Assembly: GCF_009914755.1 (NCBI RefSeq)
Contig: NC_060927.1
Strand: one strand, 5' to 3'
Length of the DNA stretch: 64,000 nucleotides
Source of the DNA: the human T2T-CHM13v2.0 reference genome, Homo sapiens
Shown here one piece after another: positions 9,197 to 31,639 of the stretch; the stretch's first letter is position 1; each line of letters opens with the position of its first letter. Position numbers and translations under genes: made by a program. The notes beneath the pieces are model-generated. The model saw nothing but the letters and a program-made list of their open reading frames with translations, did no database searches and was not told the origin of the DNA.

Positions 9197-11342
9197 GAGC
9201 ATTTTTTCACATGCCTGTTGACCACGTGTGTGTCTTGTTTTGAAAAGTGTCTGTTCATGATCTTCTGCCCGCTTTTTAACGGAGTTATTTTTTGCTTGCT
9301 AATTTGTTTAAATTTCTTGTAGATTCTGGATATTAGACCTCTGTCCAATGGACAGTTTGCAAATATTTTTTCACATTCTGTAGGTTTTCTGTTTACTCTG
9401 TTGATAGTTTCTATTGCTGTGCAGTAGCTCTTTAGTTTAATTAAATCCCATTTGTCAATTTTTGCTTATGTTGCAGTTGCTTTTGGTATCTTTGTCATAA
9501 AATTTTTGCCCATTCCTCTGTGCAGAATAGTATTGTCTCCATTTTCTTCCAGGGTTTTTAAAGTTTTGGGTTTTACATTTAAGTCTTTAATCCAGCTTGG
9601 GTTGATTTTGTATATAGTATAAGGAGGGGTTCCAGTTTTAATCTTCTACATATGGTTAGCCAGTTATCTCAGCACCATTTATTGAAAAAGAGTCTTTTCC
9701 ACGTTGCTTGTTTTTGTCAACTTTGTCTAAGCTCAGATGATTGCACGTGTATGGCATTATTTCTGGGCCCTCTATTCTGTTCTATTGGTCTATGTATATT
9801 TTTGTACCAATACCATGCTGTTTTGGTTACCGTTGCCTTGTACAATAGTTTGAAGTCGAGTTTCTTTTTGGTTAGGGTTGCTTTGGCTGTTTGGCTATAG
9901 GTTGCTTTGATTTCATATGCGTTTTAGAATAGTTTTTATAGTCCTTTGAATAATGTCATTGGTAGTTTGCTAGGAATAGCATTAAATCTGTAAATTCCTT
10001 TGGGTAGTATAGCCATTTTCACAATAATGATTCTTCCTATTCGTGAGAATGGAATGTTTTCCCATTCATTAGTGTCATCTCCAGTTTCTTTGAGCGGTGC
10101 TTGGAATTCTCATTGTAGAGATATTTCACCCCCCTGGTCAGCTGTATTCCTAGCTATTTCATTCTTTTGGTGGCTATTGTGAATGACATTGCATTCTTGA
10201 CTTGGCTCTTAGCCAGGATGTTGTTGGTGTATAGAAATGCTACTGATTTTTGTGCATTAATTTTGCATGCTGAAACTGCTGAATTTGTTTATCAGATCAA
10301 GAAGATTTGAGGCAGAAACCACGGGATTTTATAGTTATAGAATCATACTATCTGCAAAGAGAGATAGTTTGACTTCTTCTCTTCCTATTTGGATGTTTTT
10401 ATCTTCTTTCTCCTTTCTGATTGCTCTGACTGGGACTTTTAGTACTATGTTGAATGGAAGTTGTGAGAAAGGGCGTCCTTGTCTTGTTCTGGTTTTCAAG
10501 AGGAATACATCCAGCTTTTGTCCATTCAGTATGATATTGGCCATGTATTTTTCATAGCTGCTCCTTCTTATTTTGAATTATGCTCTTTCACTGATAACTA
10601 CAGAAATGCCGCTCAAAATCACAATGAGATACCATCTCACACCAGTAAAAATTGCTATTACTAAAAGGTCAAAAATAACAGATGCTAGCAAGGTGGTAGA
10701 GAAAAGGGAACTCCTACACACTGTTGATGGGAATGTAAATTAATTCAACTATTATGGAAAGTAGTTTGATGATTTCTCAAAGAACTTAAAATGGTATTAT
10801 CATTTGACCCAGCAATCCCATTATTGGGAACATACCCAAAGGAATATAAATTGTTCTACCATAAAGACACATGCAAGCATATGTCCATTGCAGAACTATT
10901 CACAATAGCAAAGACATGCAATGAACCCAAATGTCCATCAATGGTAAATTGGATAAAGAATGTGTGGTATATATATACAGTGTGGAACACTATGTAACTA
11001 TGTAGCCATAAAAAATCATGTCCTTTGCGGCAACATTATGGAGCTAGAGGCCATTATTCTAAGCAAACAAACACAGGAACAGAAATTCAAATACTGCATG
11101 TTCTCACTTATAAGTGAGAGCTAAATGTTGAGTACACATGGACACAAATAAGGCAACAACAGACACCAGGGACTACTTGAGAGTGAAGGTTGGGAGAAGA
11201 GTAAGGATCAAAAAATTACCTGTTGAGTACTATGCTTATTACCCAGGTGATTAAATCATATGTTTACCAAACCCCTGTGATATGCAATTTACCTGCATAT
11301 AAAACTTGCACATGTACTACTATACCTAAAATAAAAGCTGAA
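9197..11342 (+). mobile_element. 5'-truncated, 5'-inverted L1 (L1PA15/16-like): minus-strand ORF2 segment 9197-10587 joined to plus-strand 3' end 10588-11342
   Basis: ORF2 RT-like translation on minus ([10 protein letters not shown]...FPL-type motif region, LSLFADSMI; ORF 10335-10544), ORF2 C-terminus and 3'UTR on plus; TSD taaaatgtcaaattt at 9182-9196 and 11343-11357. Confidence 0.9.
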
Positions 11343-16368: not shown

Positions 16369-16435
16369 GTATTATTAGAAAAAGAATACTATAGCTTGAT
16401 CATCTCTTGACACGGATGCATATAAGTCTACCTAA

Positions 16436-17097
16436 TTCTTTTTAATGACTTCATAGTATTTCATTCCATACATCTACCATAACTCATATTCTAATAATTG
16501 ACTTTGAAAATGCTTAGTTTATATTCTATTAAATACCATAATAAAATATCCTGATGTATATATCTTTATTCTTTTGAGTGAATGTAAGTATATCATACAG
16601 GTTTGGCAATACAATTGCTATATCAAAGAGGTCATGTTTTTTCAATTCTGATGGCTATTGCAGAAATGTCTAAAAAATTTATGCAGTTGCCAAAAACATA
16701 TGAGAGTGTCTGTTTCTTAATATCTGAAAACTGGAAAATGATGAAAATGTTTTATATTCTTTTTAATGACTAATTAAAATCTTTTTAATGACCTCATAGT
16801 ATTTCATTTCATACATCTACCATAACTCATATTCTAATAATTGACTTTGAAAATGTTTAGTTTATACTCTATTAAATACCATAATAAAATATCCTGATGT
16901 ATATGTCTTTATTCTTTTGAGTGAATGTAACTATATCATACAGTTTTAGCAATACAATTGTTATATCAATGAGATCATGTTTTTTCAATTCTGATATTAT
17001 TGCAAAAATGTCTAAAATATTTCACACTTGCCAAAAACATATGAGAGTGTCTATTTCTCAGTATCTGAAAACTGAAAAATGATGAAAATTTTTTATA
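16436..17097. repeat. Direct tandem duplication of about 320 bp (16436-16756 and 16780-17097)
   Basis: Both copies run tctttttaatgac...catacatctaccataactcatattctaataattgactttgaaaatg...gccaaaaacatatgagagtgtc...gatgaaaat, with scattered substitutions. Confidence 0.93.
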
Positions 17098-20941: not shown

Positions 20942-21705
<764 letters not shown>

Positions 21706-21783
21706 GTTTCAAAATAATTTGTTAAAATGACACTATATATGAGATTCTATTTCTATCCTATAGATCTATATGTCTATCTTTTT

Positions 21784-22085
21784 TGTTTGTTTGTTTGTTT
21801 TTGAGATGGAGTCTGGCTCTGTCGCCCAGGCTGGAGTGCAGTGGCGCGATCTTGGCTCACTGCAAGCTCTGCCTCCCGGGTTCACGCCATTCTCCTGCCT
21901 GAGCCTCCGGAATAGCTGGGACTACAGGAGCCCATCACCATGCCTGGCTAATTTTTTTTGTATTTTTAGTAGAGACGGGGTCTCACCGTGTTAGCCAGGA
22001 TGGTCTCAATCTCCTGACCTCGTGATCCGCCCACCTCAGCCTCCCAAAGTGCTGGGATTACAGGCGTGAGCCACTGCGCCTGGCC
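21784..22085 (-). mobile_element. AluY
   Basis: Diagnostic gcaagctctgcctcccgggttcacgccattc; TSD tatatgtctatcttttt at 21767-21783 and 22087-22103. Confidence 0.93.
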
Positions 22086-22940: not shown

Positions 22941-24900
22941 TATACTTCTTCAATTCATGCCTGAAATATATACAGGATGGAATTATATGGGTGGAACTTT
23001 TTGCTAGATGAATGTATTAAAATAGGCCTGAATTTAAGAACTACTTTTACTCTTCACCAGTATATGGTCTGAAACTCATGATTCCTGTGGAGAAGATATA
23101 GGTCACTTGGGAGCCAGTCTTGAGATATATTAAATCATGCCTAAGGAGGCCAGTAGGAGACGGAAGATAATTTCAGAAGTAAGGGGTTGGGAAAGTACTT
23201 TTTGAAGTTCAGCAGAGGAAAGAATTTTGAACGACTCTCCAGGGTGATAAATTTGTCCATGTCAAGAAAGCTGATGGTGAGGGATTCTAAAGTGAAAGGA
23301 TAATGTTTCAGCTATCTGAGAGTGTGCCCATAAGAAAAAAAAAAATTAACATTGCTGATTCCTAGAAGAAATCAATGCCAGATTAGTGAAAGTCAAGTAA
23401 AAGCTTTTCTGCATGCCTTCTTTTCTTTTCTTCCAATTTAACCCTGGAGGAGTTCAAAGTAATGTAATAATTGAGAAGCATAAAAATGTTAGACAATGAT
23501 GCAGAGAATACCTCAATCGAGGCCTACCTTTTTCACCAAATTCTCTTCATTTTAGGAGATTTGGGCTGGGCAAGGTGCAGTGGTAGAGATAGGGCAGTGA
23601 GAGAAAAAGACATGATTATTTCTTTGCAAATCTATACATTTGTAAAGAAATTAATAATTCATACGTTTCTTCACAGATCTCCAATTTCTAAGTTTTTGTA
23701 TTTTGTTTTGTTTTCTTTTGCTTTTTTAAAATCTTAAATGAGACAGTTATTTTCTTAGTTAAGACTGTTCTGTGTCTAAAATAATAGAATATTTTAAATT
23801 ATTACTTTCAAATAAAAACAATTTATGAGGTCTTGTAGAGATCAGTCAGGAGCAAGACAGGAACTAACCACATAAAGTGAGTATGAATAGGATGGGATTA
23901 TATGTGAATAAAGTTGTTTTCCAATTGTCCCTTACAAGTACATATTGTTGAACTTCATTGGTGTGTTTTGCTCAAAATAAAATTTGCTTTGCCAGGTAGT
24001 GATAACAGCCTAGGACTGTTTTAAATTAAACTGTTGGGCTTTATTGTTTCATTTACTTATAAGGATTGATATATATTTATGATTCCTGGGGAAAGTCTTT
24101 TTGTTTTCTCCTGCCTAGAGCCAAGATAGGAGTCTCTATGCTCCCCCCTTTTTAAAAAATGACATCTTTTAAAGTTTAGTAACAAGAAATTCTGGCCTTA
24201 TATGGGGCTTGAAAAACTGATTCCCCATCTTGCCTGGGCCCAAGACTTTGCCTCCTGTCCCTTTAAACAGAAGGGCTAATGTACTAGAGATAAGACGTTC
24301 CCTTCATTATAGCTGTCTACCTTGAAACTAGCTTGTCTTTGAATTCCTGCACATATTTTGATGTGGTCTCTTAGAATTGTTTTTAATTTTGTTGCAAACT
24401 GATTCATGGTTGGGAGGGAAGAAGAGAGGTTTTTTTAAAATGTTATTTAGCCTTTTGGTGTATTTTGTGGTTAAATTAATTTTCAGTATACCTTGTTGGT
24501 CATATTTCTGGTAATTGAAGCACTTTCATCTCTTTGAGGATAATTATCATATTTTTAAAATTCTTGATCAGTATCTTCTACTACAGTTTGTTTGGATTTT
24601 TCTCTCTCACTCTCTCTCTCTAAGTTCCTTAGATATCTGGTTGTTTGTGCCTCTCAGCTTACTTTCTTTTTGTCATTTTGTTTTATTATTATTATACTTT
24701 AAGTTCTAGTGTACATGTGCACAACATGCAGGTTTGTTACATACGTATACATGTGCTGTGTTGGTTTGCTGCACCCACTAACTTGTCATTTACATTAGGT
24801 ATTTCTCCTAATGCTATCCCTCTCCCATCCCCCCACCACATGACAAGCCCTGGTGTGTGATGTTCCTCGCCCTGGCCCTGTGTCCAAGTGTTCTCATTGT

Positions 24901-28751
<3,851 letters not shown>

Positions 28752-28814
28752 TATGATGTTAGCTGGTTATTTTGCCCGTTAGTTGATGTTGTTTCTTCCT
28801 AGCATCGATGGTCC

Positions 28815-29820
28815 TTACAATTTGGCAAGTTTTTGAAGTGGCTGGTACTATGTGTTCCTTTCCATGTTTAGTGTTTCCTTCAGGAGCTCTTGTAAGGCAG
28901 GCCTGATGGTGACAAAATCTCTCAGCATTTGCTTGTTTGTAAAGGATTTTATTTCTCCTTCACTCATGAAGCTTAGTTTGGCTGGATTTGAAATTCTGGG
29001 TTGAAAGTTCTTTTCTTTAAGAATGCTGAATATTGGCCCCCACTCTATTCTGGCTCGTAGGGTTTCTGCAGAGAGGTTTGCTGTTATTCTGATGGCCTTC
29101 CCTTTCTGGGTAACCTGACCTTTCTCTCTGGCTGCCCTTAGCATTTTTTCCTTCATTTCAACCTTGGTGAATCTGACAATTATGTGTCTTGGAGTTGCTC
29201 TTCTCAAGGAGTATCTTTGTGGTCTTCTCTGTATTTCCTGAATTTCAGTGTTGGCCTGCCTTGGGGAATTTCTCCTGCATAATATCCTAAAGAGTGTTCA
29301 CCAGCTTGGTTCCAGTCTCCCTGTCACTTTCAAGTACACCAATCAAATTTAGATTTGGTCTTTTCACATAGTTCCATATTTCTTGGAGGCTTTGTTTGTT
29401 TCTTTTTACTCTTTTTTCTCTAAACTTCTCTTCTCACTTCATTTCATTCATTTGATCTTCAATCGATACCCTTTCTTCCACTTGATCGAATAGGCTACTG
29501 AAGCTTGTGCATGCATCACGTAGTTCTCCTGCCATGGTTTTCAGCTCCATCAGGTCATTTAAGGTCTTCTCTACACTGTTTATTCTAGGTAGCCATTCAG
29601 CTAATCCTTTTTTAGCTTCCTTACAATGGGTTCGAATATCCTCCTTTAGCTCAGAGAAGTTTGTTATTACTGACTTTCTGAAGCCTACTTCTGTCAACTT
29701 GTCAAAGTCCTTCTCCATCCTGCTTTGTTTCATTGCTGGTGAGAAGCTGTGATGCTTTGGAGGAGAAAGAGCACTCTGCTTTTTAGAATGTTCAGCTTTT
29801 CTGCTCTGGTTTCTTCCCAT
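28815..29820 (-). pseudogene. ORF1: L1 ORF1 (RNA-binding protein), disrupted
   Basis: MGRNQSRKAE N-terminus and coiled coil (29434-29820); RRATPRHIIVRF...REKG...ELLKE C-terminal part (28848-29207); premature stops. Confidence 0.93.
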
Positions 29821-30850
29821 TTTTGTTTTGGTCTTCGGTGATGTTGACCTACAGATGGGGTTTTGGTGTGGATGTCCTTTTTGTTAATGTTGATACTATT
29901 CCTTTCTGTTTGTTAGTTTTCCTTGTGAGAGTCAGGTCCCTCAGCTGCGAGTCTGTTGGAGTTTTGCCGGAGGTCCACTCCAGCAAACGCTTTTTGCCTG
30001 AGTATCACAAGCAGAGGCTGCAGAACAGCAAATATTGCAGAACAGCAAATATTGCTGCCTGATCCTTCCTCTGGAACTTTGTCTCAGAGGGGCATCTGGC
30101 TGTATGAGGTGTCAGTCGGCTTCTACTAGGAGGTGTCTCCCAGTTAGGCTACACAGGGTTCAGGGACCCACTTGAGGAGGCAGTCTGTCCGTTCTCAGTG
30201 CTCAAACACCATGCTGGGAGAACCACTGCTCTCTTCAGTGCTGTTAGACAGGGAAGTTTAAGTCTGCAGAAGTTTCTGCTGCCTTTTGTTCAGCTGTGCC
30301 CTGCCCCTGGAGGTGGGGTCTAAAGAGGTGGGCAAGCCTTGTTGAGCTGTGGTGGGCTCCACCCAGTTCGGGTTTCCCAACCGCTTTGTTTACCTACTCA
30401 AGCCTCAACAATGGCGGATGCCCCTCCCCCAGCCAGGCTTGCCGCCTCGCAGTTTGATCTCGGGCTAGCAGTGAGCAAGTTTCCTTGGGCATGGGACCCA
30501 GTGAGCCAGGTGCGGGATATCATCTCCTGGTGTGTCGTTTGCTAAGACCATTGGAAAAGTGCAGTGTTTAGGTGGCAGTGTCCTGATTTTCCCAGTATAG
30601 TCTGTCACGACTTCCTTTGGCTAGGAAAGGAAATCCCTTGACCCCTGGCGCTTCCCAGGTGAGGCGATGCCCTGCCTTGCTTTGGCAAAGCATCCCCTTT
30701 CCATGGACTGCATCCACTTTCCAACCAGTCCTAATGAGATGAACCAGATACCTCAGTTGGAAATGCAGAAATCACCAGTCTTCTGCGTTAATCATGCTGG
30801 GAGTTGCAGACAAGAGCTGTTCCTATTAGGCCATCTTGGAATGGAACCTC
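29821..30850. promoter_or_regulatory. L1 5'UTR: internal sense promoter (minus) and antisense promoter region (plus)
   Basis: Locally GC/CpG-richer; YY1-type aagatggcc at the 5' end; plus-strand donors cag|gtgcgg (30510) and cag|gtgagg (30659) at the positions known for L1 antisense splice donors. Activity of this copy is unknown. Confidence 0.65.
30411..30545 (+). pseudogene. ORF0: L1 ORF0 remnant (44 codons, frameshifted after about 10 codons)
   Basis: acaATGG Kozak context; MADAPPPARL resembles the ORF0 N-terminus MAGAPPPASL. Confidence 0.65.
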
Positions 30851-31188
30851 TCTTTTTGTCTTATTTTTAAGAGGGGTGAGGTGCATGCCCCAAGGCAGAC
30901 AGCTCACATCTCCCTGAGACTGGCTTAATTCTTTCTCTTCCATTCACTTTCCCGTCACTGGGTAATCCTGTCATCCTGTGACTCTCTGTATGTCAGACCT
31001 AGACACTGCTCTAGTCAGAGCACTTAATGTTCTAAAGGTGTTAGTTAGGGAACTAAAATGCTTAAGGACAAGTGGGTCAACCTATCTTATTGTCATTTGC
31101 TTGTCAGTCCCTAACCAGCCCTTAGTAACATGTTCTCAGGCCAATCTCTGCAGTGGTGGAGAAGCAGGCAGTGACATTCCTAAGGAAA

Positions 31189-31326
31189 TGTGATACTCAG
31201 GCAAAAAGCGTTTGCTGGAGTGGACCTCCAGCAAAACTCCAACAGACTCGCAGCTGAGGGACCTGACTCTCACAAGGAAAACTAACAAACAGAAAGGAAT
31301 AGTATCAACATTAACAAAAAGGACAT
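31189..31326 (+). repeat. 138-bp inverted copy of L1 5'UTR segment 29872-30009
   Basis: Base-by-base reverse-complement comparison gives 137/138 identity; no poly(A) tail and no TSD. Confidence 0.95.
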
Positions 31327-31444
31327 ACTATTGTGGGACTGCAGGACCAGTCTTGGCTGTGTCTTGGGCTAATACTATTCTCACCAGCATTCAACTGCCC
31401 TGTCTCTCCCAAGGTTTAATTTAATTAATGCCCCAGGTAGGAAG

Positions 31445-31611
31445 AAGCAGGATAGTGTGAGATTTTATCATGTTACTTAGAACAGCACGCAATTTAAAAC
31501 TTAGGAATTGCTTATTTCTGGAATTTACCATTTAATATTTTTGAACCATGGTTGACCATGGGTAAATAAAACATTGGAAATTAAAACTGTGGATAAGGGG
31601 GAATTACTGTA
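31445..31611 (-). mobile_element. MER44 (Tigger) fragment
   Basis: gcaatttaaaacttaggaattgcttatttctggaattt...gtggataagggggaattactgta terminal sequence. Confidence 0.75.
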
Positions 31612-31639
31612 TTTTAATGGATTTAAGTGAAAAACTAAT

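What the first reader, a model, noticed from the sequence alone, without database searches (positions are those of the whole stretch)
29872..31326. Near-perfect 138-bp inverted repeat brackets the L1 promoter: candidate invertible or gene-converting cassette
Seen: 31189-31326 is the reverse complement of 29872-30009 with one mismatch (ccgg vs ccag). It has no poly(A) and no TSD, and lies 338 bp outside the L1 5' end. The 1179 bp between the arms holds the first ~840 bp of the L1 5'UTR (YY1 site, antisense promoter region, ORF0, splice donors) plus unique flank. Established: L1PA7-age copies differ from each other by several percent, so an independent insertion would not be 99% identical, and inverted repeats can mediate recurrent inversion and gene conversion. 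Inference: the second arm is a local template-switch copy that is either very recent or kept homogeneous by conversion. Recombination between the arms would detach the promoter from ORF1/ORF2 and rebuild a continuous ~980-bp 5'UTR pointing into the opposite flank, swapping the directions of the sense and antisense promoters.
Basis: partly seen in the sequence, partly recalled or inferred. Interest (0 to 1): 0.82.

Follow-up and report, generated by a model that had tools for sequence, protein, structure and literature searches.

The report
Recent inverted copy beside old L1
A 138-base piece of an old, dead L1 retrotransposon was copied backwards into unique DNA about 340 bases upstream of that same element, most likely as a one-off DNA replication or repair accident with no shown function.

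Summary
Window 29872-30009 and 31189-31326 are reverse complements over 138 nt with one mismatch (29968/31230). It is the only near-perfect inverted pair among the 26 of at least 60 nt in the window; the others are 72-88% complementary. Arm 1 is the last part of the 5'UTR of a full-length, minus-strand, decayed L1 (about 24680-30847) bounded by a candidate target-site duplication. Arm 2 lies in single-copy flank. Arm 2 was copied from this very L1. Its next-best matches in the 3.1-Gb genome are 91% or less. It shares 15 of the 16 rare states of arm 1. A 30-mer carrying some of those states occurs only at the two arms. At the one mismatch, arm 2 keeps the family-typical base, so arm 1 changed after the copy was made. 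That also argues against an assembly artefact. The arm edges are sharp, and there is no poly(A) or TSD. None of 35 related L1 loci has such a repeat. Best reading: a single local inverted templated insertion, young relative to the L1. It is not twin priming. The "invertible cassette" idea is untested, and 138 nt is shorter than the repeats documented to drive human inversions. No ape or other human haplotypes could be examined.

The parts
24680..30847 (-). Full-length, decayed L1 (old L1PA type; subfamily not assigned with tools)
   Evidence: The 3' end with its degenerate A-rich tail was read. 5' homology to other copies ends at 30838-30848 in 23 of 28 alignments. It is 86-88% identical to the best other copies over 361 nt. 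ORF1 is open for only 128 aa.
24662..24679 (.). Candidate 3' target-site duplication of the L1
   Evidence: Local alignment to 30848-30867 scores 24, the 95th percentile of 1758 random window comparisons. It sits directly next to the A-rich tail.
30848..30867 (.). Candidate 5' target-site duplication of the L1, directly outside its 5' end
   Evidence: In L1 sense it is preceded by TT and begins with AAAAA, as read; that this fits the L1 endonuclease site preference is recalled knowledge.
29872..30009 (-). Arm 1: the template, the last 138 nt of the L1 5'UTR segment ending about 50 nt before the ORF1 ATG
   Evidence: It is contiguous with L1 sequence on both sides.
30010..30847 (-). First ~838 nt of the L1 5'UTR, lying between the arms; overlaps the RefSeq 'enhancer' 30407-30907
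   Evidence: homology to other L1 copies. The enhancer row comes from the hub annotation, not from a call.
30868..31188 (.). Single-copy flank between the L1 (plus its TSD) and arm 2
   Evidence: A search of the whole genome with 30851-31188 returned only the self match: 1 candidate, 1 scored. None of 35 L1 copies aligns here.
31189..31326 (+). Arm 2: the inverted templated copy of arm 1
   Evidence: 99% identical to arm 1, while the 38 other-locus matches among the 40 scored (of 1781 candidates) are 89-91%. It shares 15 of 16 rare states. The 30-mer is found only at the two arms.
31230..31230 (+). The only arm difference: arm 2 keeps the family-typical A (33 of 35 copies); arm 1 has a private G at 29968 (complement C on the + strand)

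Best explanation
Arm 2 is a one-off, local, inverted templated insertion. Long after an L1 inserted on the minus strand, a DNA strand being made in the unique flank about 340 nt upstream of the element left its template. This happened during replication or break repair. The strand copied 137-138 nt from the opposite strand of the L1 5'UTR about 1.2 kb away and then returned to the place it had left. The result is a 138-nt inverted repeat enclosing 1179 nt. It is a mutational scar, not a device. Its only near-certain physical consequence is that any transcript spanning both arms can fold into a 138-bp double-stranded stem. Shown: the repeat exists, the copy came from this L1, the copy is younger than nearly all of that L1's private changes (or was converted after them), the spacer is single-copy, and the L1 has its own candidate TSD inside the spacer. 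Inferred: the template-switch mechanism, the date, and the lack of function.
For: (1) Source. Across the 3.1-Gb genome, arm 2 matches arm 1 at 99%, and the 38 other-locus matches among the 40 scored (of 1781 candidates) are 89-91%. Against 35 other L1 copies it is 85-90.5% identical.
(2) Private states. In 16 of 138 columns, arm 1 carries a state found in at most 10% of 35 other copies, including a 3-nt and a 1-nt insertion. Arm 2 shares 15 of these 16. A 30-mer covering several of them occurs exactly twice in the genome at up to 2 mismatches, at the two arms; the reversed-pattern control found 0.
(3) Order of events. At the single mismatch, arm 2 has the base carried by 33 of 35 copies and arm 1 has a private base. 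Arm 1 therefore mutated after the copy was made.
(4) Sharp edges. There is no residual similarity beyond either end.
(5) Not part of the L1 insertion. L1 homology ends at 30838-30848 in 23 of 28 alignments. A candidate TSD pairs 24662-24679 with 30848-30867. The 338 nt between L1 and arm 2 are single-copy.
(6) Not a family feature. 0 of 35 related L1 loci (about 1.5 kb on each side) show any inverted self-match at E<=1e-5, whereas the window's own locus does.
(7) Junctions, read. There is no TSD and no poly(A). The 8 nt ending at the left junction (AAGGAAAT) match the last 8 nt of the insert (AAGGACAT) at 7 of 8. This fits a return of the copied strand to the point it left. My hand estimate of chance is about 4e-4 for one fixed register.
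(8) Precedent. Template switches that create inverted repeats are documented in great-ape genomes, with median copied length 12 nt and maximum 128 nt (PMC7954356, passages read).
Against: Only one haplotype of one species was available, so the derived state and the age are not directly shown. Microhomology at the outgoing switch is only 1 nt, and it is 0 nt at the right junction in the strict sense. Simple end-joining capture of a fragment therefore fits as well as a replicative switch. The copied length (137-138 nt) and the distance (about 1.2 kb) exceed the largest event and the search range in the great-ape template-switch study. The TSD score is only at the 95th percentile of a general null; its weight comes from its position. 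The window's L1 copy has more rare states (about 10-12% of columns) than the 35 comparison copies (mean about 3%). That is partly a selection effect of how the copies were chosen, so some 'private' states may predate the L1 insertion, which weakens the relative dating.
Confidence: 0.75

Rival explanations
1. Old copy kept alike by gene conversion. Arm 2 arose at or near the time of the L1 insertion, for example through a second priming event on the L1 RNA at a nearby nick, or as an unrelated old L1 fragment. Repeated arm-to-arm conversion, in either direction, has since erased the differences.
For: The arms are 99% identical, while this L1 differs from its closest relatives by 12-14% and arm 2 differs from other copies by 9.5-15%. 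Conversion would also spread private states to both arms, so one search does not exclude it. The geometry (the ORF1-proximal end of arm 2 faces outward) is the one a second priming event would give, as read.
Against: Identity runs to the very ends of the 138 nt with no eroded margins, and rare states are shared at the 9th base and at the 14th base from the end. Conversion needs flanking homology and should leave decayed edges. The tract is short and would have had to be converted in full and recently. Rare-state density does not differ between arm and flank (16 of 138 versus 24 of 238 columns, Fisher p=0.73), so nothing marks the arm as having a separate history. No poly(A) or TSD supports an independent old fragment.
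Confidence: 0.1
2. Working invertible cassette. The arms mediate recurrent non-allelic homologous recombination, so the 1179-nt segment holding the L1 5'UTR promoter/enhancer exists in both orientations among people or apes.
For: A near-perfect inverted repeat is the required substrate. Inverted Alu and L1 pairs have produced 49 inversions between human and chimpanzee, with a median size of 1452 bp (PMC2603318, passages read). Inversions flanked by inverted repeats are often recurrent (PMC6748972, passages read).
Against: No second orientation could be looked for. 138 nt is below the 200-bp cut-off chosen 'based on experimental data' for recombination-prone repeats (PMC11794170). It is also well below the 654 bp-24.2 kb repeats of 24 NAHR inversions (PMC6748972). 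Only 49 such events arose genome-wide in two lineages despite very many inverted Alu pairs, so the per-pair rate is very low. The L1 is contiguous in the present orientation, which is the ancestral one.
Confidence: 0.05
3. L1 twin priming or 5' transduction. The whole block (arm 2, 338 nt and the L1) entered as one retrotransposition product with an inverted 5' piece.
For: Twin priming is the commonest source of inversions under 2 kb in human genomes (10.1101/2021.12.20.472354, abstract and passages read). The outward-facing end of arm 2 is the end expected for a second primer.
Against: The candidate TSD lies between the L1 and arm 2, at 30848-30867, not outside arm 2. The best alignment of the 3' flank to the DNA after arm 2 scores 14, below the null median of 16. 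The 338 nt are single-copy, with no source locus elsewhere. An insertion-age copy should differ from arm 1 by roughly 10%, not 0.7%.
Confidence: 0.03
4. Assembly artefact: arm 2 does not exist in the CHM13 DNA.
For: Only the assembly was seen, not the reads.
Against: An artefactual fold-back copy of arm 1 would carry arm 1's private G. Arm 2 instead carries the base typical of the family, found in 33 of 35 copies. That is what a real, earlier copy would show. Both junctions are clean, and the flanks on both sides are single-copy and continuous.
Confidence: 0.02

Closest known systems
Template-switch mutations that create inverted repeats (four-point model; FoSTeS/MMBIR-type templated insertions)
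   Same: A stretch is replaced or extended by the reverse complement of nearby sequence on the same chromosome. This leaves a perfect inverted repeat with no TSD and no poly(A), and the strand returns to the original template (PMC7954356, passages read; PMC8421209, search listing and start of abstract only).
   Different: The copied tract (137-138 nt) is longer than the largest event in the great-ape set (128 nt; median 12). The template lies about 1.2 kb away, rather than tens to hundreds of nt. Microhomology at the outgoing switch is 1 nt at most.
Class 2 templated sequence insertion polymorphisms (break-repair patches)
   Same: An insertion of templated sequence without a TSD, poly(A) or endonuclease site, consistent with double-strand-break repair (PMC5110952, abstract read).
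   Different: TSIPs are defined as templated from distant genomic regions. Here the template is the neighbouring element, 1.2 kb away, and polymorphism is unknown.
L1 twin priming (5'-inverted L1 insertions)
   Same: An inverted L1 piece lies next to a sense L1, with the 3'-most L1 position of the inverted piece facing outward.
   Different: The inverted piece is separated from the L1 by the L1's own candidate TSD and about 320 nt of single-copy DNA. It duplicates rather than replaces L1 sequence. It is far younger than the element by divergence.
Retrotransposon recombination-mediated inversion and NAHR inversions between inverted repeats
   Same: A high-identity inverted repeat pair brackets a kilobase-scale segment (PMC2603318, PMC6748972).
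   Different: Those pairs are independent insertions of about 300 bp to many kb. Here one arm is a 138-nt copy of the other, and no inversion has been observed.

Membership tests
Local inverted templated insertion (template switch / break-repair synthesis) | The inserted tract is the reverse complement of nearby sequence on the same chromosome | tested here: met
   138 nt, 1 mismatch, 1179 nt apart.
Local inverted templated insertion (template switch / break-repair synthesis) | The template is the neighbouring copy itself, not another member of the repeat family | tested here: met
   99% versus 89-91% for the 38 other-locus matches among 40 scored of 1781 candidates; 15 of 16 rare states shared; the 30-mer occurs only at the two arms.
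Local inverted templated insertion (template switch / break-repair synthesis) | No retrotransposition hallmarks (TSD, poly(A), endonuclease site) at the insert | tested here: met
   Read; no match beyond the arm ends.
Local inverted templated insertion (template switch / break-repair synthesis) | Microhomology at the switch points | tested here: inconclusive
   1 ambiguous nt at the left junction and 0 at the right. There is a 7-of-8 match between the flank end and the insert end (read).
Local inverted templated insertion (template switch / break-repair synthesis) | An ancestral empty site exists in an outgroup or other haplotypes | not testable with these tools
   Only the CHM13 genome is held. 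Scans of genome contigs and viral contigs for the 30-mer found 0.
L1 twin priming | Inverted and sense pieces abut inside one TSD-bounded insertion | tested here: not met
   The candidate TSD at 30848-30867 lies between them, together with 338 nt of single-copy DNA.
L1 twin priming | The inverted piece is as old as the element | tested here: not met
   1 of 138 differences between the arms versus 12-14% between this L1 and its closest relatives. This could be met only if gene conversion is added.
NAHR / retrotransposon-mediated inversion locus | A high-identity inverted repeat pair flanks the segment | tested here: met
NAHR / retrotransposon-mediated inversion locus | Repeat length lies in the range documented to mediate inversions | tested here: not met
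   138 nt versus a 200-bp catalogue floor (PMC11794170) and 654 bp-24.2 kb in 24 validated cases (PMC6748972). Alu pairs of about 300 bp are the shortest class seen in PMC2603318 (the Alu length is recalled).
NAHR / retrotransposon-mediated inversion locus | Both orientations are observed among haplotypes or species | not testable with these tools
   No other human or ape assembly is available.
Class 2 TSIP | The template is a distant genomic region (often via RNA) | tested here: not met
   The template is 1179 nt away on the same chromosome.

The most novel reading that the evidence does not exclude
The 138-nt arms are a live recombination substrate. Under this reading the 1.2-kb segment carrying the L1 5'UTR promoter/enhancer flips recurrently, or is polymorphic in orientation, in humans or African apes. 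That would make it the shortest inverted-repeat-driven inversion known in people, and it would be created by a templated insertion rather than by two independent repeats. A milder version is that the arms form a 138-bp double-stranded RNA in the lncRNA intron that is edited or sensed.
Probability: 0.05. Interest if true: 0.55.

Novelty: new member of a known kind. Interest (0 to 1): 0.17.

Why it matters
As read here, it is a clean, datable example of a mid-sized local inverted templated insertion in the human germline. It is larger and longer-range than the events usually catalogued. It is shorter than the repeats that inverted-repeat catalogues record (200-bp floor), so this class can be missed from both sides. 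It shows how a dead retrotransposon can seed a new near-perfect inverted repeat. It has no demonstrated effect on genes: the site is a gene desert inside an intron of a predicted lncRNA. It would matter more only if haplotype data showed inversion or if the RNA stem were shown to be edited.

Tried and rejected

(2) The pattern search with 3 mismatches failed on the machine. It was repeated with 2 mismatches.

(3) I scanned genome contigs and viral contigs for the locus-specific 30-mer, hoping for stray human contigs from another haplotype. Both returned 0 hits, so there is no information on other haplotypes.

(4) I looked for a TSD around the whole block (L1, spacer and arm 2). The best alignment of the L1 3' flank to the DNA after arm 2 scored 14, below the null median of 16. 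Rejected.

(5) I tested whether the spacer is a 5' transduction or a repeat. It is single-copy. Rejected.

(6) I asked whether the 17-bp tandem repeat at 30019-30055, next to arm 1, was part of the same event. It is present in the other L1 copies shown, so it is a family feature. Rejected.

(7) I asked whether the arm carries more rare states than its flanks, which would hint that arm 2 converted arm 1. A first count gave 16 of 138 versus 10 of 223 columns. Once a 13-nt deletion in the flank is counted, it is 16 of 138 versus 24 of 238, p=0.73. No signal.

(8) I looked for an old repeat spanning the arm 2 insertion site that could reveal the empty site. The right flank is single-copy for 97 nt, and an old interspersed repeat begins only at about 31424. 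Not usable.

(9) A staggered-break inversion that leaves inverted duplications was considered. It is rejected because the L1 is contiguous across arm 1 in the present orientation.

(10) Literature: the search for LOC107986108 found 0 papers.

Full report
OBSERVATION. Arms 29872-30009 and 31189-31326 are 138 nt long and 1179 nt apart, with one mismatch at 29968/31230. Similarity stops abruptly at both ends: 2 of 14 positions match outward and 1 of 14 inward. A scan of the whole 64-kb window found 26 inverted pairs of at least 60 nt. Of the 25 listed, the other 24 are ordinary Alu-Alu or L1-L1 pairs at 72-88% complementarity, and this pair is 99%. The useful null is therefore not random sequence. 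The question is whether two L1 pieces of this age should be this alike, and they should not.

ANATOMY. The sequence from about 24680 to 30847 is a full-length L1 on the minus strand.
- Its 3' end with a degenerate A-rich tail is visible at about 24676-24700.
- Homology to other full-length copies ends at 30838-30848 in 23 of 28 alignments.
- The element is dead: ORF1 is open for only 128 aa.
- It is old: it is 86-88% identical to the best 39 other copies over 361 nt.
- A candidate target-site duplication pairs 24662-24679 with 30848-30867. The score of 24 equals the 95th percentile of 1758 random comparisons, so its weight comes from lying directly against both L1 ends.
- In L1 sense, the 5' copy of that duplication is preceded by TT and begins with AAAAA (read). 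That this fits the L1 endonuclease preference is recalled knowledge.

Arm 1 is the last part of the L1 5'UTR, ending about 50 nt before the ORF1 ATG. The 338 nt between the L1 and arm 2 are single-copy in the 3.1-Gb genome. The 97 nt after arm 2 are also single-copy, and an old interspersed repeat begins at about 31424. No L1 homology exists between 30849 and 31189 in any of the 35 comparison copies.

WHERE ARM 2 CAME FROM. A genome search with arm 2 and its flanks returned arm 1 at 99%. The 38 matches at other loci, among the 40 scored of 1781 candidates, were 89-91%. Against 35 non-redundant L1 copies, arm 2 is 85-90.5% identical. For those 35 copies, two duplicate loci and the three loci covering the window itself were dropped.

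In an alignment of those 35 copies, arm 1 carries a state found in at most 10% of the copies at 16 of 138 columns. These include a 3-nt and a 1-nt insertion. Arm 2 shares 15 of the 16. A 30-mer spanning several of these states occurs exactly twice in the genome at up to 2 mismatches, at the two arms; the reversed-pattern control found none. Arm 2 is thus a copy of this particular L1.

At the one differing column, arm 2 has A, like 33 of 35 copies, and arm 1 has a private G. Arm 1 therefore changed after the copy was made. This same fact argues against an assembly artefact, because a spurious fold-back copy of arm 1 would carry the G.

WHEN. If the shared rare states arose after the L1 inserted, 15 changes preceded the copying in one lineage and 1 followed it in two lineages. 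That places the event in roughly the last few percent of the element's residence time. One difference in 138 nt, at a recalled neutral rate of about 1-1.7e-9 per site per year, gives about 2-3 million years. The Poisson range is wide, roughly 0.1 to well over 10 million years. This is inference, not a tool result.

There is a caveat. The window's copy has more rare columns (about 10-12%) than the comparison copies (mean about 3%). This is partly because the comparison copies were selected as best matches. Some "private" states may therefore predate the insertion.

HOW. Arm 2 has no poly(A), no TSD and no endonuclease-type site. The first base (T) is ambiguous between flank and copy, so the outgoing junction has 1 nt of microhomology at most. 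The 8 nt ending at the left junction (AAGGAAAT) match the last 8 nt of the insert (AAGGACAT) at 7 of 8. My hand estimate of chance is about 4e-4 in a fixed register.

This fits a nascent plus strand that left its template, copied the opposite strand of the L1 1.2 kb away for 137 nt, and re-annealed at the point it had left, with no loss of target DNA. A fragment captured by end joining during break repair fits nearly as well. The two cannot be separated without the empty site.

Template switches that create inverted repeats are documented in great apes, but with a median of 12 nt and a maximum of 128 nt, and with templates sought only within tens to hundreds of nt (PMC7954356, passages read). 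This event lies at or beyond the upper tail of that class.

RIVALS.
- Twin priming. It is the main source of sub-2-kb inversions in human genomes (10.1101/2021.12.20.472354, abstract and passages read), and it predicts the outward-facing end that arm 2 has. It fails because the candidate TSD and single-copy DNA lie between the two pieces, and because the copy is far too similar.
- An insertion-age copy homogenised by gene conversion. A single genome cannot exclude this. However, identity runs to the very ends of a 138-nt tract with no eroded margins, and rare-state density is the same in arm and flanks (16 of 138 versus 24 of 238, p=0.73).
- A family feature. This is excluded: 0 of 35 related L1 loci have any inverted self-match at E<=1e-5, while the window's own locus does.

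THE INVERSION IDEA. Recombination between the arms would indeed flip 30010-31188, which holds the first ~838 nt of the 5'UTR and the RefSeq "enhancer" (hub annotation). Nothing here tests whether that happens.
- Published maps of recombination-prone repeats start at 200 bp (PMC11794170, passages read).
- 24 validated NAHR inversions have repeats of 654 bp-24.2 kb (PMC6748972, passages read).
- Inverted Alu and L1 pairs produced only 49 inversions in the human and chimpanzee lineages genome-wide (PMC2603318, passages read).

So a 138-nt pair is a possible but weak substrate. Because the L1 is dead, flipping its promoter would affect only local transcription.

A PHYSICAL CONSEQUENCE. Folding the minus-strand RNA of 29860-31340 pairs the two arms along their whole length in both the minimum-energy and the centroid structure. 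The minus strand is the strand of the predicted lncRNA, whose intron contains this region according to the hub annotation. Whether that RNA is made, and whether the stem is edited or sensed, is unknown.

LIMITS. Scans of two public collections for stray copies of the locus found nothing. No paper mentions LOC107986108 in the searched library. I made no search for this locus by coordinates. Supplementary tables of the inversion papers were not opened, so a listing of this site there cannot be excluded.

VERDICT. This is an ordinary kind of structural mutation, nicely preserved and of low general interest unless population data show inversion.

Noticed in passing
window 16434-17097: Two direct repeat families (219 nt at 95% and 84 nt at 87%), both with 341-343-nt spacing, indicate a two-copy tandem duplication of a ~343-bp unit.
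   Followed up: no
window 21461-21651 and 21779-21969: A closely spaced inverted Alu-like pair: 191 nt, 81% complementary, only 127 nt apart. This is the classic double-stranded-RNA-forming arrangement.
   Followed up: no
window ~29826 (just upstream of the L1 ORF1 ATG at ~29820): This L1 copy lacks 13 nt that are present in all 7 other copies shown, just before the ORF1 start. It also has more rare states (about 10-12% of columns) than the 35 comparison copies (mean about 3%).
   Followed up: partly
Homology to ORF0 was not tested.
   Followed up: no
window 31424-31617: An old interspersed repeat with many genomic copies at 77-84% identity lies 97 nt beyond arm 2. Its family was not identified with tools.
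   Followed up: no
window 9324-9857 and 10588-10978: Further L1 fragments, 75-84% identical to parts of the full-length L1 at 25045-26097. One set is direct and one inverted.
   Followed up: no
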